A program made the translations under genes and the position numbers. This document shows positions 49,112-60,365 of a stretch of 64,000 nucleotides of DNA, piece by piece. The stretch is from an uncultured virus (IMG/VR IMGVR_UViG_3300044946_000014) (Duplodnaviria > Heunggongvirae > Uroviricota > Caudoviricetes): IMG/VR virus record IMGVR_UViG_3300044946_000014; one strand, 5' to 3'. Within the stretch, counting starts at the first letter, position 1, and the number at the start of each line of letters is the position of its first letter. Below the pieces are notes generated by a model. That model made no database searches. It was not told the origin of the DNA and was given only the letters and a program-made list of their open reading frames with translations.

Positions 49112-49852
49112 TCACGCTTCTTTCCCTGTCGCATTGAAAATCGCTTGCCGCGCGATGCTCAACTTATTGAACGGAACTTTCCCGGTCTTCTTTTCCTCTT
49201 CAACAATGCTCAGTGCCCAGCCGATGTTGGCGCCACCCGGAGCCCGCTTGAATGCTGCCGATGCCCCAAGCTCTTGCAGCCTCTGCGCGCCATACTCGCG
49301 GGTCGATACTGCTGCACCTGGTGCGGCCAAGGCTGCAACTCGCTCAGGCACCGGCAGAACCGCGCCTTCCAATACCACCTTCAGCGCTGACTCAAAACGC
49401 GGCTTGATGCTTGAAAACGTCTGGCTGATCATGTCGAATTCACCAACCTTGACAGCCGCCCAATAGATCGCCGGATTACTCCATACGTCTTTGCCGTGCT
49501 GTCGCTTACGCATCTGTTCGATAGCCTCGTAGATTGCGGCATCGACGTTGATCTGTGGCTTGCATGCCTTCATGAATTCGGTGATGGAAGGCGGCCAATC
49601 GTACGATTTGCGGCAGACCTTCAGCCCTTCGGAAATCATCTGAGGCGTCAAACCTTCTTCATCGAATGCCTCAGACCAAGAATCCCGCCAGTTCGCCACC
49701 GCTTGCTCGTTAGCAAATGCGGCTCGCCAACGATTCGGATACGCGCCGTCGAAGCGATTGAACAAATGGTCCATGAGCGAGATTCCGAGCTTCGGATGCT
49801 GCTCAAGCCAGAGGCTTTGCTTAAACGTCGATGTAGTCGTCGGGGCGTTCAT
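49112..49852 (-). CDS. replication protein P-like
   Basis: downstream of initiator; WPPSITEF...C motif. Confidence 0.7.
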   Translation of the reverse strand: MNAPTTTSTFKQSLWLEQHPKLGISLMDHLFNRFDGAYPNRWRAAFANEQAVANWRDSWSEAFDEEGLTPQMISEGLKVCRKSYDWPPSITEFMKACKPQINVDAAIYEAIEQMRKRQHGKDVWSNPAIYWAAVKVGEFDMISQTFSSIKPRFESALKVVLEGAVLPVPERVAALAAPGAAVSTREYGAQRLQELGASAAFKRAPGGANIGWALSIVEEEKKTGKVPFNKLSIARQAIFNATGKEA

Positions 49853-50582
49853 GGTCGGTTACTCGATCTTTGTTCACGTATGCAACGGGGTCGAATTTTC
49901 GATTTCCTCCCGATGCTTGGACATTTCCTTTGCCAGTCAACCAAGAGGCATCAAACCCACCCCATCCACGTGTACAACAAAGGCGTATCACGGCGTCCAT
50001 CGTCATCTCGGCTTTTATCGCTTCAGCCTGTACGCCGGCAAGAGCGGTTTCCGTAGGCTTCAGTCGCTTGCCTTTACGAAGGTCTAGCCAGTCCCTTGCG
50101 ACTTTCGGGTCAACACCCGCAGATTCGAGATGCGCCTGCGCATCGAATCGCGAAGCGTGCTGCGTTTTAGGTTTTACTTCTTCTCTATTCTTCTCTTCTC
50201 TATTCTTCTCTAGGCCGTTACCGTCACGTTTCTGTAACGTTACATCGCCGTTACCTTCCATAAGTCTTTGTTTTTCACGAAATTTTGCAACGCGGCCAGC
50301 GCTCGAATCACTTTTCTTCTGGCGATCACTCCACGCGTTGATGACGACCTCGCCAGATTCGTTCAAAACAACAAGTTCACGCTGTAACAACTCATGTAAC
50401 GTTACTGAAGCGTTACGGCGAAGAGCCCAATCAATGCTCTGTTGAGTGAGTTTCGTATTGCCATCGGCCTCCGCAGTGGTCGCAACCATCAGCAATTCCA
50501 TCCACGTGCGGAATTGCGCGTCCGAGAGAGTTCCGACCTTCGGGTCATTCAGCATCTCACCGTAAAGACGACACCATTCCAT
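49821..50582 (-). CDS. replication initiator (O-like) with internal origin repeats
   Basis: WCRLYGEMLNDPKV, RVAKFRE; GTTAC/GTAAC and TTCTCT repeats at ~50175-50260. Confidence 0.75.
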   Translation of the reverse strand: MEWCRLYGEMLNDPKVGTLSDAQFRTWMELLMVATTAEADGNTKLTQQSIDWALRRNASVTLHELLQRELVVLNESGEVVINAWSDRQKKSDSSAGRVAKFREKQRLMEGNGDVTLQKRDGNGLEKNREEKNREEVKPKTQHASRFDAQAHLESAGVDPKVARDWLDLRKGKRLKPTETALAGVQAEAIKAEMTMDAVIRLCCTRGWGGFDASWLTGKGNVQASGGNRKFDPVAYVNKDRVTDHERPDDYIDV

Positions 50583-50872
50583 CAACGTTCCTTGCTTGTT
50601 CTCAATCGTTTCGCAGCAAAAGTTCACACTGAATTCCAACGAATCGAATCCCCTGTTTCTTCGCCTGCTTCCAAATCTTGTTCGGTGACAGGTTAGCGAC
50701 GTGAGCCAGACGCTTCATGCACTCGTTGACGCCGCCGGCCGGGTAGTGCTCGCGCAGGACGCGAAGCTCGCCGGTCGTCCAGTGGTGGTAAGGGCGTGTC
50801 ATACAAACACCCATGCGCCACCGAACATGAGCCGAATCATGGCGAGTGCCCAGAAGTCGATCAGAAAGTCGA

Positions 50873-52793: not shown

Positions 52794-52849
52794 TTGCATA
52801 GGACTTTTTGCGCGTTTATCAAATTGATCTGCGTTGGTAGGGTTGAGTC

Positions 52850-53347
52850 ATGAAAACGTGCCGACAAATACGCTACGAAAACGCGCGAACACTCATCGTC
52901 AAGGATGGCCCTGCGAACTTCGCCAGGAAGATTTCGAGCGCTACCGAAGACGTTATGACGCCCCAGCAAGTCAATTCTTGGGGCGGCCCCAATCCGCGAC
53001 GAGGGATTGGCGATGACATTGCGAGGCGCATCGAGCGAGCATATGAGAAGGAAGAAGGATGGCTTGACCATGAGTGGATCGGCGCTGGCGAAACGCAGAA
53101 CAAAGGCCAAAATCGGGCTCTGAGTAACGAAGCAAAAAGTTTGATTGTGTGTGTCGAGCGTCTGGATGTCCTTGGCGACTTGGCTAGGAAAACATTCACC
53201 TACCATACGGGTTTGCTCTTACTTTCTTTGGCTTCTGCTGAGTTGCAGACTGGCGCAGTGCGGTCCCAAATGTTGGAAGAGATAGAGCGTCTGCTGGGTC
53301 CGACACAAACGGATTCCACGGGGGCATCAAATGAACGAAAGAGCTAA
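52850..53347 (+). CDS. CI-like immunity repressor (no recognisable S24 peptidase domain)
   Basis: IRYENAR.L, RGIGDDIARRIE...GWLD HTH; divergent from cro. Confidence 0.75.
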   Translation: MKTCRQIRYENARTLIVKDGPANFARKISSATEDVMTPQQVNSWGGPNPRRGIGDDIARRIERAYEKEEGWLDHEWIGAGETQNKGQNRALSNEAKSLIVCVERLDVLGDLARKTFTYHTGLLLLSLASAELQTGAVRSQMLEEIERLLGPTQTDSTGASNERKS

Positions 53348-53504
53348 CGGCGCCATTATTGATCTAGCGCAATACCGGCAGCGAATCTTGCAACAACAGC
53401 AACGGAGCGAGCTGCATCGAGATATCTCGGATGCGCTCCTTGATACAATTTCCTATCACATCCTGATGGCCGCCCGAGCCATCGCGGCCTCCAAGACCAA
53501 GTAA
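53331..53504 (+). CDS. small protein co-transcribed with repressor
   Basis: 57-aa ORF MNERANGAIIDLAQYRQR..., overlapping the CI end, followed by terminator. Confidence 0.5.
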   Translation: MNERANGAIIDLAQYRQRILQQQQRSELHRDISDALLDTISYHILMAARAIAASKTK

Positions 53505-53523
53505 GCATCTCCAGTTAAATATA

Positions 53524-53548
53524 GAGCCCGCTTCGCGCGGGCTTTTTC
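53524..53548 (+). terminator. intrinsic terminator
   Basis: AGCCCGC-TTCGC-GCGGGCT-TTTT. Confidence 0.8.
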
Positions 53549-53623
53549 ACGTGCTCAAGATGCATGACTATCGGCATGAAGTGTTCGATTAAAAACAATT
53601 ATGCTGATGATGGGGCAAAAAGG

Positions 53624-53652
53624 TTTGCAAATAGACCAATAAGGTCTAAGAT
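53624..53652 (+). promoter_or_regulatory. pL promoter with OL operator
   Basis: TTGCAA...TAAGAT with perfect palindrome TAGACC-AATAA-GGTCTA (53632-53648) in the spacer. Confidence 0.75.
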
Positions 53653-53713
53653 TCATTCCAAGGCAGTACACGACGTCACGACAGACGAACAACGCAATCG
53701 AAGGGGCAACGAC

Positions 53714-53947
53714 GTGAACGCAGAGACCGAAGCAATCGATACGGACAGCGTCCCGGCCGGCATGGTCGAGGTCAGCGAAGAGAAGTTTTTTGCCGTCATG
53801 GGACCGCGTGACGTGCATCCACGCGCGAAGCCTGATCGCAGCGTTTGGGAAATGCCGAATCGCACGGTGCTCGGCCACTCGATGCCGGGATACCTGGCAC
53901 CGACTGGAAAGCCGAAGCTCTTCTTTCTGACGGCCAGTCTCGCCTAA
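53714..53947 (+). CDS. hypothetical protein, first gene of pL operon
   Basis: AAGGGG RBS + GTG. Confidence 0.55.
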   Translation: MNAETEAIDTDSVPAGMVEVSEEKFFAVMGPRDVHPRAKPDRSVWEMPNRTVLGHSMPGYLAPTGKPKLFFLTASLA

Positions 53948-53975
53948 CAACCGCTCCCGCTACAGGAGAAAGACC

Positions 53976-54077
53976 ATGCGCATTGATCTCGATCTCTATC
54001 GCGAACTGCGAGCCGAGGGATGGGCCGCCCAAGCAGCGATCTTTTATGCGCGTCGCGCCGGCCGTTGGCTTGCCTGA
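53976..54077 (+). CDS. 33-aa peptide MRIDLDLYRELRAEGW...
   Basis: AGGAG RBS within repeated junction motif. Confidence 0.55.
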   Translation: MRIDLDLYRELRAEGWAAQAAIFYARRAGRWLA

Positions 54078-54104
54078 CCAACCGCGCCTGCTAGGAGAAA
54101 GACC

Positions 54105-54311
54105 ATGGCACACCAAACGATGAGTGGGCGCTCTGCGCAGGCTCAAATCGACCTCGCGACTGAACGCTATTCCCATCTGCTGATGGAGGACGAGTGGACG
54201 CTCGAATATGCACATCAAGTCCTAGCGCATATCGACGCGCACCACATCGATCTATTTGAGGTGGCCGGACTTGCGAAAGCGATCGCGTGCTTTCAATGCG
54301 CCGCTGACTGA
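54105..54311 (+). CDS. hypothetical protein
   Basis: AGGAG RBS within repeated junction motif. Confidence 0.55.
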   Translation: MAHQTMSGRSAQAQIDLATERYSHLLMEDEWTLEYAHQVLAHIDAHHIDLFEVAGLAKAIACFQCAAD

Positions 54312-54339
54312 CCAACCGCGCCCGCTACGGCGGGAAAAA

Positions 54340-54410
54340 GATCGAAACGCCTAGAGGAAGCGGCAACACACGGCTAGGTGTCTACGCGTGATGCGCGTAC
54401 TGACGAGATC
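54340..54410 (+). ncRNA. hammerhead ribozyme, type II topology
   Basis: GATC-GAAA-[CGCCTAG..CTAGGTG]-TC-[TACGCG-TGATG-CGCGTA]-CTGACGA-GATC; all core nucleotides present. Confidence 0.85.
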
Positions 54411-54477
54411 GTAATAGCGCCAACGGGCGCGCCGTTCTGGTGACAGCGGGCGGGTTCTTTAAAAATCGACGGTTTTG

Positions 54478-55492
54478 ATCCGGGACGCGCAAGCGAGCAA
54501 CCGGGCGTTGTGCTCATGGTGCACACGAGATAGCGCTAGGACAGGCAACCATTTCCCGAAAGGGACACCGAACAAAGCAACCGCTGGTGTAGAAAGCGGA
54601 GCGCCCGCGATAGTCGCGTGACCAGGTGAGTCATGATGGCGTCACGGAAGGCGTGCGGCCCGGGAATACAGACCGGCGCCGCACGTAAAGCAGTTCTTCT
54701 GAGAAGGCCGCTGAACTCCCTACGCGGCCGAGTAATCGCGAAACCGATCCACCTTAATGCCCAGCCCCTCGTGGCGGGTTGGTGCAGTAGATTAGCCGAA
54801 GGCCGCTGTATAGCAACAGCGCCTTCTCAGAAGGATTGCGGTAGAGCAGCGTGTGCATCCACACCGCGAAAGCGGGTTGCATGAACGGGAGAAGGTGGAT
54901 AGGCCCGTTTCTCCAGGCTGGCACGGAGACTTTGTCGGAACGGCGTACCGCAAGAAGCCAGTTAGCTCCGCCCGATTGACCGCCGTAAGCGGTCGCCCGG
55001 TAAGCGCATTCGTTGAGTGTGCTTACCGGGACTGGATGACTTTGCGGAGGTTCAAGACGGTCCCCATAAATGTCCACGAATCTCCAAAGTTGGCGACTCA
55101 ATAGCCTGGCAGCCCGGAAAGACGGCCCTCAGCAGTGCTGAGGCGAGACGATTGCCGCGGAAGCGGTGCAGGCACTGTCCGGGAGCCAGCCTTAAGAACA
55201 ATCGTCTCGACCTGAGCATTGCAAGCAGCTTGAGTGGATGGTGCTATGCGGCTCCTAGCGAGCTGGTGACGTGCGCTGGCAGACATGGAAACGGCGATGC
55301 TTAGGCATTTAGGTCCGCCCATAGCCGATCGGAAACACAGGCCGATCCATAGCGTCATCCACTGAAGCTGTTTCAAGGCACCCCACCCAAGCAACCCGCA
55401 GACATTGACGATTGGGCCTCGTCAACCATACCCCATGCTTAGGGATGAGACTCCAAAACCGCTGCCTGATGCGGAATCTGCCGGTTGCTTGG
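54478..55492 (+). ncRNA. array of structured non-coding RNA units
   Basis: no credible ORF; multiple 15-26 bp closing stems and GNRA hairpins. Confidence 0.6.
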
Positions 55493-55529
55493 CTGGACTG
55501 CTTTTTCTGTCACTAATTTAGGACTCCAT

Positions 55530-55637
55530 ATGCTTTGGGGAATTGTTGTGACACTCATCGCTGCGTTTGCTCTGTTCTTGTGGGCACTTCGCAGCGGCTT
55601 CAAGATCATCGAGAGAGATGATCATCATCGGCATTAA
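55530..55637 (+). CDS. 35-aa membrane peptide
   Basis: AGGA RBS; MLWGIVVTLIAAFALFLWALRSGF... Confidence 0.5.
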   Translation: MLWGIVVTLIAAFALFLWALRSGFKIIERDDHHRH

Positions 55638-55649
55638 CTAGGAGCAATC

Positions 55650-56012
55650 ATGCAGATTCAGCTTCCCCCGCTCACTGACGGCGAGATTTATCTCTGCGGC
55701 TTCGTCGACAAGAATGGCGACGTCACTCACACGATCCTGCTGCCGGGTGACAACGATCCTGCGACATGGCAGGAACAGATGAACTGGGCCAAGAGCATCG
55801 GTGGTGATTTGCCGACGCGCGCCGAGCTCGTGATCGCCTACGAACAGCATCGCGACCTGTTCGAGAAGGCTGCGTACTGGTCCAACACGCCGGACGACGC
55901 CCCCGACTATGCCGGCTGGGCTTGGTGTCAGGGCTTCGGCCACGGTAGCCAGAACTGTGACGGCCGCTACTTTCAGTTCCGTGCCCGGGCCGTTCGCAGA
56001 TTGTCGATTTAA
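55650..56012 (+). CDS. DGR target protein 1 (DUF1566/C-type-lectin-like fold) with C-terminal VR
   Basis: LPTRAEL, YWS, WAW.Q.F..G.Q......FRARAVRR; VR 55912-55999. Confidence 0.88.
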   Translation: MQIQLPPLTDGEIYLCGFVDKNGDVTHTILLPGDNDPATWQEQMNWAKSIGGDLPTRAELVIAYEQHRDLFEKAAYWSNTPDDAPDYAGWAWCQGFGHGSQNCDGRYFQFRARAVRRLSI

Positions 56013-56041
56013 CCCTTCATCCATTTTCAACGGAGAAAGCA

Positions 56042-56506
56042 ATGACGATGACGCTTGAAGCAATCGAAGCCGAGCACGTGCGCATCGGCGCGATGATCGA
56101 AGAATTCAAGAAGCAGCCGAGAGCAACCGAGTACCATGTCGACGCCGTCACCATCCCGCTCGCGGCAGGTGAGCGCATCGCCGGCCAGATTCTTCTCGAA
56201 GACGGATCGTTGAGCCACTACCTGATTCTCCTGCCGGGGGAGGCCGAAGATCTGGATTGGGAGGCGGCGAAGGCATGGGCCGCCGAACGTGGCGGCGAAC
56301 TGCCGACGCGACGGGAGCAATCGCTTCTGTTCGCCAATCTGAAGCCTGAGTTCGAGCCGACTTGGTACTGGTCCGGCGAACGTCACGAATCGAACTCCGG
56401 CTGGGCTTGGTTTCAGTACTTCACCAGCGGTACCCAGTACTCTACCGGCCACGACAATCAGTTCCGTGCCCGGGCCGTTCGCAGGTTCATTCCTTCAATT
56501 TTTTAG
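56042..56506 (+). CDS. DGR target protein 2 (DUF1566/C-type-lectin-like fold) with C-terminal VR
   Basis: LPTRREQ, WYWS, WAW.Q.F..G.Q......FRARAVRR; VR 56397-56484. Confidence 0.88.
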   Translation: MTMTLEAIEAEHVRIGAMIEEFKKQPRATEYHVDAVTIPLAAGERIAGQILLEDGSLSHYLILLPGEAEDLDWEAAKAWAAERGGELPTRREQSLLFANLKPEFEPTWYWSGERHESNSGWAWFQYFTSGTQYSTGHDNQFRARAVRRFIPSIF

Positions 56507-56518
56507 TCATTCATCCCC

Positions 56519-56728
56519 ATGGCGCTTCATACCGAGCTCGACATATATCGAGATGCGTGTGACTTGTTTGCCGCGATCGCGAATGCCGTCGCGAACATGC
56601 GAAAGGACTTCAAGCCATTGATCGGTCAGGAGCTTTTGAGAGAAAGCACGCGAATCACGATCTACATCTTCCGCGCGAATGCGGCCACCGACAAGGCGCC
56701 GCATCTGATGAAGAGCGCACATCCATGA
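56519..56728 (+). pseudogene. avd: truncated Avd (four-helix bundle DGR accessory protein)
   Basis: LHTELDIYRDACDL...KDFKPLIGQEL....IFRAN resembles Avd helices 1-2; ends at 69 aa. Confidence 0.75.
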
Positions 56729-59605: not shown

Positions 59606-59908
59606 ACGGGCCTATGAAATCGCTCGCAACGCTGGCGATAAACAGGCCATGGATTTGATCGCCCAGGCCATCAGCTACGCCGTCTCCGGCTATGTCGAAT
59701 ACGCGGAACCGGTCTACAACAAGTATGTGAAGGAGGTGCCATGAAAGAGGAAAGCCATGAGGAAATTTTCGCTCGTCTCGACAAGGCGCGCGCAATCATG
59801 ACCGATTTCAGAGACTGGATTCGCGGCGAGCAACGCAAGCGCGACGATGCGGCGTTCAGGGCATTCATGGCGAAGATCCAGACGCCGGTCAAATAACATG
59901 GTGCTTAG

Positions 59909-60049
59909 GGCTTTGTAGGGATGGGAATGCGCGGGCTGACGCGCGTAAGTCAGGAGAACGCTTCGTTCGCTTCCTGCCCCGTCTTAAAGGTGACGGTCGA
60001 GCGAGTACGAAATGCCGGAGATCAGCACCGGCCCCATCCCCACAAAGCC
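59909..60049 (+). ncRNA. tRNA-shaped structured RNA candidate
   Basis: long closing stem, D-arm-like GCGCG-GGCTGA-CGCGC, T-arm-like GCCGG-AGATCAGCA-CCGGC. Confidence 0.55.
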
Positions 60050-60074
60050 GTGAGGACTACTACTGGAGAACGCC

Positions 60075-60365
60075 ATGGCAACAATGAGCAAACTGAAACC
60101 TGGCGATGTGCTCTATGACGTGCATCGAACGAAGATGGGCAATACGACGGCGAGCACGATGGGATGTTGGATCGTGCGCGTTATCGAAGTGCACGGGACA
60201 TACATCATCGCCTCATGGAATGGTAATCCACCGCGTCGCATGTTTGAGCACAGCATCAAGAAGCTTCGCGTCAACAAGCCAGTATTCGTCAAATCCGGTT
60301 TCGGTAAGCGTCTCGCAACTTGCGACGAAATAAAGGCCATGAAAGCCGAAAAGGAAGGGCCATGA
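60075..60365 (+). CDS. hypothetical protein
   Basis: GGAG RBS; KLKPGDVLYDV...KMGNT...ASWNGN. Confidence 0.6.
   Translation: MATMSKLKPGDVLYDVHRTKMGNTTASTMGCWIVRVIEVHGTYIIASWNGNPPRRMFEHSIKKLRVNKPVFVKSGFGKRLATCDEIKAMKAEKEGP

What the first reader, a model, noticed from the sequence alone, without database searches (positions are those of the whole stretch)
54478..55492. Tandem array of stem-closed RNA cassettes between the hammerhead and the DGR targets
Seen: about 1.2 kb with no credible ORF, built from units in which a long imperfect stem encloses a different multi-hairpin payload. Units: 54690-54839 (GCAGTTCTTCTGAGAAGGCCGCTG / CAGCGCCTTCTCAGAAGGATTGC); 55132-55222 (GCAGTGCTGAGGCGAGACGATTG / CAATCGTCTCGACCTGAGCATTGC); 55223-55373 (AAGCAGCTTGAGTGGATGGTGCTATG / CATAGCGTCATCCACTGAAGCTGTTT); 55387-55492 (CCAAGCAACCCGCAGA / TCTGCCGGTTGCTTGG); plus a 16-bp hairpin at 54996-55030 and GAAA/GCAA tetraloop hairpins. 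Three stems have a single G-G or C-C mismatch 8-10 bp in, and two units abut with zero spacing. G-U pairs suggest selection at RNA level on the + strand. Inference: a polycistronic sRNA array released by RNase III-type cleavage, delivering several distinct early RNAs (decoys, antitoxin mimics, sponges or antitermination elements). I know of no named family for the whole.
Basis: partly seen in the sequence, partly recalled or inferred. Interest (0 to 1): 0.8.

Follow-up and report, generated by a model that had tools for sequence, protein, structure and literature searches.

The report
Modular stem-closed RNA cassette array in phage
A 1.2-kb gene-free stretch of this phage is a string of separately folding RNA modules, each held shut by a long stem; other phages carry the same modules and stems singly or reshuffled, and what they do is unknown.

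Summary
Window 54312-55530 has no ORF with a family match. On the + strand it folds into units closed by stems of 16-26 pairs (z -4.7 to -6.7, 0 of 200 shuffles each).

Comparison shows a modular array, not chance and probably not one giant RNA.
- Each module recurs in non-coding DNA of other phages, alone or in other combinations.
- Closing stems covary while their contents stay fixed (U2: 9 compensated pairs).
- The U3 content sits on at least five unrelated stems of 21-28 pairs.
- RNA-library contigs of relatives keep the U2 and U3 stems but carry other contents.
- One module (54970-55131) is a strongly conserved pseudoknot found from Acidobacteriota to Enterobacterales.
- A fifth cassette (59909-60049) belongs to a tRNA-like kissing-loop family with at least 120 viral contigs.

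None of these matches Rfam 15. No reverse transcriptase lies in the window, and 4 of 5 carrier records have none, so this is not a UG27-type templating array.

A probable type II hammerhead heads the array. RNase III release and any decoy function remain untested inference.

The parts
54340..54417 (+). Probable type II hammerhead ribozyme. Predicted cut after GUC, between 54382 and 54383.
   Evidence: Rfam Hammerhead_II scores 19.8 bits, E 0.52, which is below the gathering score of 37. The core CUGACGA / GAAA / GUC is intact. It is 83.5% identical to an intergenic stretch of Burkholderia phage BcepC6B, and stems I and III change in a compensating way.
54451..54620 (+). Module U0: an A/U-rich start followed by several short hairpins. 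It is the part most conserved among related arrays.
   Evidence: 83.5% identical to L019 424-589 and 79.7% to L045. A three-sequence consensus fold of 54440-54692 gives 69 pairs, 9 of them compensated. The single-sequence z-score is only -0.2.
54621..54689 (+). Two hairpins between U0 and U1.
   Evidence: z -4.0 with 0 of 200 shuffles as good. The second hairpin is kept in L045.
54690..54839 (+). Cassette U1: a 23-pair closing stem (2 G-U pairs, one bulged C) around a multi-hairpin content of about 100 nt.
   Evidence: z -6.3; stem listed. L045 carries a look-alike stem (GCAGUU... / ...AAUUGC) around a different content of about 140 nt. RNA-library contigs of relatives match up to exactly 54839 and then diverge.
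54840..54969 (+). Stretch without a closing stem; weakly structured.
   Evidence: z -0.5. Only 54938-54989 matches L019, at 75%. One RNA-library contig covers 54782-54974.
54970..55131 (+). Pseudoknot module: a GUAA hairpin, the 16-pair hairpin 54996-55030, the pseudoknot core 55028-55085, and a GAAA-type hairpin near 55111-55126.
   Evidence: z -4.1. Sixteen distinct homologues show 31 invariant columns of 65. Pseudoknot helix P1 is 98.8% paired, 3 of its 5 pairs are compensated, and 0 of 500 shuffles reach its covariation score. It stands alone between two genes in L025.
55132..55222 (+). Cassette U2: a 22-pair closing stem (G.G mismatch after 8 pairs, bulged A after 11) around an invariant content of about 45 nt.
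   Evidence: z -6.7. In four homologues, 26 pairs are predicted and 9 are compensated, all in the closing stem, while the content does not vary.
55223..55373 (+). Cassette U3: a 25-pair closing stem (G.G mismatch after 9 pairs, 3 G-U pairs) around a content of about 100 nt.
   Evidence: z -4.7. The content is 85-95% identical in 12 viral loci. Stems of 21-28 pairs close 8 of 9 distinct copies, with at least five unrelated stem sequences. RNA-library contigs keep the stem with 56 or 124 other letters inside.
55387..55492 (+). Cassette U4: a 15-pair closing stem (C.C mismatch after 10 pairs) around three hairpins. A weak terminator-like site follows.
   Evidence: z -4.8 on the + strand and -4.9 on the minus strand. 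No homologue was found. Terminator-like site at 55481-55496 plus a T-run.
59909..60049 (+). Fifth, solitary cassette 4.4 kb downstream: a 17-pair stem (A.C mismatch after 8 pairs) around a tRNA-like kissing-loop module.
   Evidence: z -3.6 on the + strand and -6.2 on the minus strand. It is the same module as L019 1125-1277, with compensated hairpin changes. At least 120 viral contigs carry the 3' hairpin.

Best explanation
The gap 54312-55530 is transcribed with the flanking + strand genes as a non-coding array of independently folding RNA modules.

A type II hammerhead at its head probably cuts the array off the upstream message at 54382|54383. That would leave a 5'-hydroxyl end on the array.

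Each cassette then has two parts. One is a long closing stem ('stalk') of 16-26 pairs, usually with one mismatch 8-10 pairs above its base. The other is a structured content ('payload') that belongs to its own RNA family. Stalks and payloads are interchangeable parts. Selection keeps a long stalk whatever its sequence, and keeps each payload's sequence whatever its stalk.

Shown here:
- the folds exist;
- they are conserved at the RNA level;
- the modules are autonomous;
- parts are shuffled between phages;
- the modules point the same way as neighbouring genes;
- there is no tie to a reverse transcriptase.

Inferred, not shown:
- the stalks insulate neighbouring folds and act as processing stalks for a double-strand-specific nuclease such as host RNase III, which would free each payload as a small RNA of 60-130 nt;
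- the payloads act in trans on proteins, with one family imitating tRNA.
For: - Folding beats shuffles for U1 to U4 and for two more stretches.
- The + strand folds better overall: -516.8 against -484.1 kcal/mol.
- Pieces of the array match non-coding DNA of three different phages separately.
- L019 has a syntenic 1.37-kb gap with three collinear shared blocks among unshared ones. L045 has a shorter array of about 770 nt.
- Modules occur alone between genes: the pseudoknot in L025 and U2 in L020.
- U2 stalks covary at 9 pairs around an invariant payload, and L019 keeps the G.G mismatch and the bulged A.
- The U3 payload sits on at least five unrelated stalks of 21-28 pairs.
- UAM5 and Mica share one stalk around different payloads.
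- RNA-library contigs of relatives break or swap exactly at cassette borders.
- The pseudoknot helix covaries.
- Neighbouring genes lie on the module's strand. For the kissing-loop family this is 83 against 11 downstream and 50 against 10 upstream. For the pseudoknot it is 12 against 2 upstream.
- No terminator-like site lies on the + strand between 54311 and 55480, and there is no sigma-70-like promoter in 52800-56100.
Against: - No RNA ends, strand or abundance were measured. The RNA-library evidence is unstranded contigs, which may include DNA carry-over.
- U4 folds as well on the minus strand, and cassette 5 folds better there.
- U1's payload and all of U4 have no homologue, so they carry no covariation support.
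- U0 and 54840-54969 are not better than shuffles.
- The hammerhead scores below Rfam's gathering score, and the related arrays L019 and L045 lack it.
- Nothing ties the stalks to RNase III except their length and central irregularity.
- The mismatch position is not uniform in relatives: it lies after 5, 8, 10 or 13 pairs, and some stalks have none.
Confidence: 0.6

Rival explanations
1. It is one large ornate RNA, in the manner of GOLLD or ROOL. The 'cassettes' would be peripheral domains of a single functional molecule of about 1.1 kb that stays intact.
For: - The modules are contiguous; two abut with no spacer.
- The region is rich in GNRA-type loops.
- The whole-region fold also predicts long-range helices.
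- Kilobase-sized folded RNAs are published for phages and prophages (PMC12286853, abstract seen).
- Earlier notes of this scan describe similar kilobase regions.
Against: - Modules occur alone in short intergenic gaps.
- Related arrays differ in length (about 770, 1219 and 1370 nt) and in content.
- Payloads are swapped inside retained stalks.
- No core is shared by all carriers.
- There is no Rfam match to GOLLD or ROOL.
Confidence: 0.15
2. It is a cis-acting intercistronic processing and stability region. The hammerhead and the long stems would only cut and protect the flanking messages, like the RNase III sites between T7 early genes, and the contents would have no function of their own.
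For: - It lies inside a same-strand gene string, with no predicted promoter or strong terminator of its own.
- Hammerheads flanking genes in prophages were proposed to process long transcripts (PMC3088659, passages seen).
- The pseudoknot module tends to follow a same-strand gene: 12 against 2.
Against: - Payload sequences are far more conserved than a spacer needs. The pseudoknot module has 31 invariant columns across phages of distant hosts. The U2 payload is invariant in 4 of 4 copies. The U3 payload is 85-95% identical on unrelated stalks.
- 1.2 kb is much more than a processing site needs.
Confidence: 0.12
3. It is a DNA-level element: inverted repeats acting as recombination or replication sites, or miniature transposons. 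On this view the RNA fold is incidental.
For: - Stalks and payloads recombine freely and stalk sequences recur between families, as would be expected if the stalks were recombination sites.
- U4 and cassette 5 fold at least as well on the minus strand.
- A replication-initiator-like gene lies 4 kb upstream.
Against: - The stalks hold 6 G-U pairs on the + strand against 1 A.C.
- The pseudoknot and a loop-loop complementarity make sense only for a single strand.
- The strand bias relative to neighbouring genes is strong: 83 against 11.
- The cassette ends do not fit the integron attC end motifs. Those motifs are recalled, and the comparison was made by eye.
- There are no iterons.
Confidence: 0.06
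4. It is a template array for a reverse transcriptase, like the UG27 arrays of about 150-nt stem-based ncRNA units in prophages, or like retron or DGR template RNAs.
For: - The look is similar: a variable array of units of about 90-150 nt, each with a basal hairpin, with unit gain and loss between relatives (bioRxiv 10.64898/2026.09.22.753630, abstract and section 9 read).
- DGR target genes and an Avd-like ORF lie just downstream.
Against: - None of the 52 ORFs scanned with Pfam, 8 of them rescanned at a lax threshold, matches a reverse transcriptase, and there are no PADLOC matches.
- Only 1 of 5 carrier records has an RVT_1 match. The four without one include UAM5, whose full 59,830-bp record was searched, and two proviruses rated 100% complete.
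- The units here differ from one another, whereas UG27 units share one architecture.
- No template repeat for the DGR variable regions exists in the window.
Confidence: 0.04

Closest known systems
UG27 reverse-transcriptase ncRNA arrays of prophages (bioRxiv 10.64898/2026.09.22.753630; abstract and section 9 read)
   Same: A phage-borne array of variable length, made of stem-based ncRNA units of about 150 nt. Units are gained and lost between close relatives, and sequence differs between units.
   Different: UG27 arrays sit beside a reverse transcriptase and two accessory genes, and they template cDNA. Their units share one architecture. Here no reverse transcriptase is in the window or in 4 of 5 carrier records. 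The units also belong to different families mounted on interchangeable stalks.
Processing stalks cut by RNase III: the stems that enclose 16S and 23S rRNA in rrn transcripts, and the T7 early-region RNase III sites (recalled textbook knowledge; no call)
   Same: Long helices formed by sequences flanking a structured RNA, of about two helical turns and often with an internal irregularity, lying inside a polycistronic transcript.
   Different: No cleavage was shown here. T7 sites are simple hairpins between genes and enclose no payload. rrn stalks enclose rRNA.
Hammerhead ribozymes flanking genes in prophages (Perreault et al. 2011, PMC3088659; passages read)
   Same: A type II hammerhead in a phage intergenic region, proposed to cut long phage transcripts. 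A Burkholderia phage example (Bcep176) is mentioned in that paper.
   Different: Here a single, sub-threshold hammerhead heads a non-coding array and does not flank a gene. Related arrays lack it.
GOLLD and ROOL large ornate RNAs of phages and prophages (PMC12286853; abstract seen)
   Same: Kilobase-scale, highly structured non-coding RNA in phages, with function unknown. The cassette-5 family lies beside tRNA genes in two loci; that GOLLD and ROOL lie near tRNA genes is recalled.
   Different: There is no Rfam match. There is no shared core. Modules occur singly and are reshuffled.
Phage tRNA gene clusters and tRNA-like RNAs such as the tmRNA tRNA-like domain (recalled)
   Same: In many relatives the cassette-5 family has a 7-pair closing stem followed by ACC, a hairpin placed directly before the 3' strand, and a 5' hairpin whose loop is complementary to that hairpin's loop. 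It lies next to true tRNA genes in 2 of 13 loci checked.
   Different: ARAGORN calls none of them tRNA or tmRNA. The loops lack the D- and T-loop consensus. The middle is a variable insert of 45-185 nt. The copy in this window has a 17-pair stalk and no CCA.

Membership tests
Hammerhead ribozyme, type II (Rfam RF02276) | Score at or above Rfam's gathering threshold | tested here: not met
   19.8 bits against a gathering score of 37, E 0.52. The shortfall goes with a 22-nt loop insertion.
Hammerhead ribozyme, type II (Rfam RF02276) | Catalytic core (CUGANGA, GAAA, cleavage triplet NUH) framed by three helices, with stem II open | tested here: met
   CUGACGA, GAAA and GUC|U are present with stems I, II and III. 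The BcepC6B homologue keeps the core with compensated stem changes. Self-cleavage was not assayed.
UG27-type reverse-transcriptase ncRNA array | Adjacent UG27 reverse transcriptase with its two accessory genes | tested here: not met
   No RVT match among the 52 ORFs scanned in the window, 8 of them rescanned at a lax threshold. No PADLOC match. Only 1 of 5 carrier records has RVT_1.
UG27-type reverse-transcriptase ncRNA array | All units share one secondary-structure architecture (main hairpin with an asymmetric internal loop, plus a pseudoknot) | tested here: inconclusive
   Units here fold differently from one another. The published covariance model was not available for scoring (bioRxiv supplements are closed).
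GOLLD / ROOL large ornate RNAs | Match to the Rfam covariance models | tested here: not met
   No match at the gathering threshold over the window, nor at E up to 10 over 54200-55700.
RNase III processing site | Helix of about two turns (20 pairs or more), which may carry an internal irregularity | tested here: met
   The stalks have 23, 22 and 25 pairs in U1 to U3 and 15 in U4. This feature is necessary but not specific.
RNase III processing site | Staggered double-strand cleavage in vivo or in vitro that depends on rnc | not testable with these tools
   The only RNA data are unstranded contigs, which cannot show ends.
Integron attC cassette array | Cassette ends carrying the conserved inverse core and core sites, with an integron integrase nearby | tested here: not met
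   Cassette ends read GCAG... / ...YUGC. They do not fit the attC end motifs as I recall them, on either strand. The only integrase-family gene is the phage integrase 50 kb away.
tRNA / tmRNA (for cassette 5 and its family) | Recognised by a tRNA/tmRNA finder; cloverleaf with D- and T-loop consensus | tested here: not met
   ARAGORN finds nothing at 59909-60049 and none of the modules in 13 loci. An acceptor-like 7-8-pair stem followed by ACC occurs in 18 of 40 short-stem relatives.
CRISPR or toxin-antitoxin RNA repeat arrays | Near-identical direct repeats at regular spacing | tested here: not met
   There are no direct-repeat families within 54312-55530 beyond chance-level two-copy matches.

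The most novel reading that the evidence does not exclude
Phages of Burkholderiales and other hosts may share a 'stalk-and-payload' RNA display system. A small set of interchangeable double-stranded stalks would present a library of unrelated structured RNAs: a near-invariant pseudoknot that could be a new ribozyme or ligand binder, a tRNA mimic, and others. Cassettes would be shuffled between phages like protein morons and released by a double-strand nuclease to act on host or defence proteins. That would be a reverse-transcriptase-independent, RNA-only accessory gene system that has not been described.
Probability: 0.3. Interest if true: 0.85.

Novelty: new variant of a known kind. Interest (0 to 1): 0.66.

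Why it matters
Phage genomes are still read almost wholly through their proteins. This looks like a reusable RNA architecture: long stalks that can be exchanged, carrying contents that belong to several widespread but uncatalogued RNA families.

One content is a pseudoknot kept nearly letter for letter in phages or prophages of hosts from Acidobacteriota to Enterobacterales. Another is a tRNA look-alike present in at least 120 viral contigs.

If the cassettes are released and act in trans, they would be RNA counterparts of phage accessory genes, and they would give several new structured RNA classes to test. The stalk design might also serve as a natural scaffold for expressing folded RNAs in bacteria.

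If the region is only a processing region, it is still an unusually elaborate one.

Tried and rejected
- **Rfam.** The gathering scan of the window and E-value scans of 54200-55700, 54965-55130, 59880-60080 and ten loci gave only the sub-threshold hammerhead and chance-level matches.
- **Own genome.** The window's assembly is not held. The nearest virus record, G001, has no match.
- **Neighbouring proteins as anchors.** Fourteen loci with the downstream DUF1566-like gene have coding sequence upstream, not this array. The 68-aa upstream ORF gave one locus with no match to the array.
- **Metagenome scan.** A U0 pattern returned only L019's contig again and one new 1.3-kb contig.
- **Genome-contig scan.** Six of 14 hits lacked the full pseudoknot motif. 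My own estimate of chance hits for 18 fixed bases in 596 Gb is about 17.
- **Promoter inside the array.** None was predicted, and a by-eye candidate at U0 is not conserved.
- **Stalk arms as guides to targets elsewhere in the phage.** There were 4 shared 11-mers against about 3.4 expected by chance.
- **DGR template repeat in the gap.** None is present.
- **Literature.** Six searches found no description of these modules. The motif-string search returned unrelated primer-type matches among its 10 listed papers.
- **Depth and holes in the RNA-library contigs.** These are not used as evidence of expression level or of absence.
- **My first register for the pseudoknot helix.** It was off by one column and was corrected.
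Full report
**Setting**

The window is a temperate tailed phage. It carries an integrase, terminase, portal and tail genes, and three tRNA genes. Its nearest DNA matches are Burkholderia and Ralstonia phages.

The finding lies in a string of + strand genes, in this order:
- a 504-aa ORF, a repressor-like ORF and small ORFs ending at 54311;
- the gap 54312-55530;
- a 35-aa ORF;
- two Lcl_C/DUF1566-like genes;
- a short Avd-like ORF and an HNH gene.

G+C content rises to 0.58-0.62 across the gap.

Yes. All quoted stems are at the stated coordinates.

| Stretch | Coordinates | z, + strand | z, minus strand |
|---|---|---|---|
| U1 | 54690-54839 | -6.3 | -4.4 |
| U2 | 55132-55222 | -6.7 | -4.1 |
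| U3 | 55223-55373 | -4.7 | -3.1 |
| U4 | 55387-55492 | -4.8 | -4.9 |
| Pseudoknot module | 54970-55131 | -4.1 | -1.4 |
| Two hairpins | 54621-54689 | -4.0 | -1.7 |
| Hammerhead | 54336-54422 | +0.6 | -0.5 |
| U0 | 54451-54620 | -0.2 | +0.9 |
| Unclosed stretch | 54840-54969 | -0.5 | -0.2 |

All values come from 200 dinucleotide shuffles. For the six stretches with z of -4.0 or lower on the + strand, no shuffle folded as well. The last three rows are no better than shuffles.

- The whole region folds to -516.8 kcal/mol on the + strand and -484.1 on the minus strand.
- A lax stem finder that tolerates many G-U pairs lists about 50 long 'stems' per strand in the 64 kb, so that count is not evidence. 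Of the four + strand stems with at least 20 Watson-Crick pairs, three are U1 to U3.
- The mismatches are as described: G.G after 8 and 9 pairs in U2 and U3, and C.C after 10 pairs in U4.
- ORFs of 48-115 aa overlap the region on both strands. None of the 8 matches PHROGs or Pfam.

**It is not in the catalogue**

Rfam 15 finds only a sub-threshold type II hammerhead at 54340-54417, at 19.8 bits, E 0.52, against a gathering score of 37.
- Its core is intact, and it predicts a cut at 54382|54383.
- An intergenic stretch of phage BcepC6B is 83.5% identical, with compensated changes in stems I and III.

Closer Rfam scans of single modules and of ten related loci gave chance-level matches only.

**The pieces are separate, conserved modules**

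blastn against phage records matched three different parts of the gap to non-coding DNA of three different phages:
- the hammerhead to BcepC6B;
- 54973-55080 to Burkholderia phage Mica, just after its integrase gene;
- 55107-55204 to Ralstonia phage UAM5.

Related arrays differ in size and content.
- Viral contig L019 has a syntenic 1.37-kb gap before a DUF1566-like gene. Three collinear blocks match the window (54451-54618 at 83.5%, 54938-54989, and 55136-55223 at 91%), and unshared sequence lies between them.
- Metagenome contig L045 has a shorter array of about 770 nt. It shares U0 and the following hairpin. It also has a cassette whose stalk resembles U1's (GCAGUU... / ...AAUUGC, mismatch after 10 pairs) but whose content differs.
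- A three-sequence fold of U0 plus the hairpins gives 69 pairs, 9 of them compensated.

**Stalks and payloads evolve separately**

- **U2.** In four homologues (window, L019, L020, UAM5) the 45-nt content is invariant apart from one covarying pair of positions and the tetraloop. The closing stem differs at 9 pairs with compensation. L019 keeps the G.G mismatch and the bulged A at the same places.
- **U3.** The content is 85-95% identical in 12 viral loci. Eight of 9 distinct copies are closed by stems of 21-28 pairs, and the stems fall into at least five unrelated sequences. The ninth copy, L170, has a shorter stem.
- **Same stalk, different payload.** UAM5's U2 cassette and a Mica cassette share the same stalk arms around different contents.
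- **Relatives in RNA libraries.** Contigs from three root samples of one study and one seawater sample show relatives with the following features:
  - the U3 stalk is kept, with 56 or 124 other letters in place of about 110;
  - the match ends exactly at the end of U1 (54839);
  - the 5' arm of the U2 stalk is followed by another content.
- **Shared outer stalk sequence.** The outer parts of the U1, U2 and U3 stalks are alike (GCAG...CUGAG / CUCAG...AUUGC). The G.G mismatch sits in the same UGA-opposite-UGA context in U2, U3 and L019's U2.
- **Abutting cassettes elsewhere.** They recur in other phages with a similar junction (...UGC|AAGC...; L131, L168, L175).

**The pseudoknot module (54970-55131)**

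Sixteen distinct copies were collected: the window, Mica, six further viral contigs and eight genome contigs. The genome contigs are from Acidobacteriaceae, Acidiferrales, Aquaspirillum, Herbaspirillum (two), Caballeronia, Mixta and Pectobacterium.
- They share 31 invariant columns of 65.
- A 5-pair helix crosses a second, covarying helix. It is 98.8% paired, 3 of its 5 pairs change on both sides, and 0 of 500 shuffles reach its covariation score.
- In L025 the module stands alone between two same-strand genes.
- Six of the 14 genome-contig hits lacked the full motif and are taken as chance.

**A fifth cassette and its family**

At 59909-60049, between two + strand ORFs, a 17-pair stalk (A.C mismatch after 8 pairs) encloses a module. 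Its first hairpin loop (GGCUGA) is complementary to its last hairpin loop (GAUCAGC).
- The same module lies in L019's array, with compensated hairpin changes.
- Of 112 distinct copies, 99 show the 5' hairpin. Forty-nine have closing stems of 6-8 pairs and 40 have stems of 13-25 pairs. Of the 40 with 7- or 8-pair stems, 18 are followed by ACC, as in a tRNA acceptor end.
- ARAGORN calls none of them tRNA or tmRNA, but true tRNA genes abut the module in 2 of 13 loci checked.
- The cassette in this window folds better on the minus strand (z -6.2 against -3.6). I keep the + strand because of the family's orientation.

**Strand and transcription**

- The stalks hold 6 G-U pairs against 1 A.C on the + strand.
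- For the kissing-loop family, the flanking gene picked by third-position G+C lies on the module's strand in 83 against 11 cases downstream and 50 against 10 upstream, out of 110 copies. The remaining flanks were too short or too weak to call.
- For the pseudoknot module the figures are 12 against 2 upstream and 8 against 6 downstream. For U3 they are 4 against 1 and 3 against 2. For U2 they are 3 against 0 on both sides.
- No sigma-70-like promoter is predicted in 52800-56100. The only + strand terminator-like sites are weak ones at 55481-55496 and 55524-55540.
- Presence in RNA libraries is compatible with transcription but does not prove it.

**Comparison with what is known**

The closest published analogue is a September 2026 preprint on UG27 reverse-transcriptase systems of prophages. 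Their long intergenic regions hold variable arrays of stem-based ncRNA units of about 150 nt that template cDNA (abstract and section 9 read). That mechanism does not fit here.
- No reverse transcriptase is found among the 52 window ORFs scanned, 8 of them rescanned at a lax threshold, and there is no PADLOC match.
- Only 1 of 5 carrier records has an RVT_1 match. The four without one include UAM5, whose full 59,830-bp record was searched, and two proviruses rated 100% complete.
- The one record with a match is L019's contig, where the reverse transcriptase lies about 7 kb away and is probably the DGR enzyme.
- The units here differ from one another.

GOLLD and ROOL, integron attC arrays, CRISPR-like repeats and retron RNAs fail their defining tests (see the membership table). 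The stalks resemble RNase III processing stalks in length and in having a central irregularity. That is a resemblance, not a test.

**Most likely working**

Shown:
- an array of autonomous, conserved, RNA-level modules on interchangeable long stalks, oriented with its operon.

Inferred:
- the hammerhead frees the array from the upstream message;
- the stalks insulate neighbouring folds and are cut by a double-strand-specific nuclease to release the payloads;
- the payloads act in trans, and one family imitates tRNA.

I put 0.6 on the shown core together with the stalk-scaffold reading. I put about 0.35 on RNase III release specifically. I put 0.15 or less on any particular function such as a decoy against defence systems.

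**Earlier notes of this scan**

It describes a widespread uncatalogued element in a prophage's folded kilobase, and says its swappable-cassette reading failed there. I did not see that sequence. Here the swap evidence rests on my own.
- Another note (e1-737849) reported a C4-like leader ahead of a DGR island. No C4 or sRNA-Xcc1 match exists here.

**Limits**

- U1's content and U4 have no homologues.
- There are no RNA ends, strandedness or abundance data.
- bioRxiv supplements are closed, so the UG27 model could not be applied.

Noticed in passing
window 55650-56728: The DGR looks incomplete. Two Lcl_C/DUF1566-like target genes carry 81%-identical 91-nt variable-region-like repeats (55912-56002 and 56397-56487). 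A short 69-aa Avd-like ORF follows. No template repeat and no reverse transcriptase were found anywhere in the 64-kb window.
   Followed up: partly
window 59909-60049; loci L047-L138: The kissing-loop, tRNA-like module family is very common in viral contigs: at least 120 at exact 20-mer level. It has either a 7-pair acceptor-like stem followed by ACC or a long stalk of 13-25 pairs. It lies next to tRNA genes or tRNA 3' fragments in several loci, and it is absent from Rfam 15.
   Followed up: partly
window 50221-50418: A 23-pair inverted repeat with only one G-U pair, containing GTAACGTTAC palindromes, lies within or beside the replication-initiator-like gene (49821-50639, minus strand). It may be an origin of replication.
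   Followed up: no
window 54071-54093 and 54305-54327: A 23-nt direct repeat (91% identical) brackets the 68-aa ORF 54105-54311. The second copy also matches L003, L013 and L014. The small ORF may be an inserted unit.
   Followed up: no
window 55530-55637: A 35-aa hydrophobic ORF lies directly after the array. A relative in an RNA library keeps it (contig over 55522-55637 with 11 differences), and L019 has small ORFs at the same place.
   Followed up: no
L002 (phage Mica) 2936-3541; L001 (phage UAM5) 2806-3285: Both cultivated phages carry 0.5-0.6-kb non-coding stretches that hold several of these modules. Mica has the pseudoknot, a stalked cassette and an annotated pseudo-tRNA. UAM5 has U2 and the 3' hairpin of the kissing-loop module. 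Both could serve as experimental models.
   Followed up: partly
alignment A6 columns 13 and 52 (window 55039 and 55078): In the pseudoknot module an A/G position covaries with a G/C position. A goes with G in 11 of 16 copies and G goes with C in 4 of 16. The remaining copy, L042, has A with A. This hints at a further tertiary contact.
   Followed up: no
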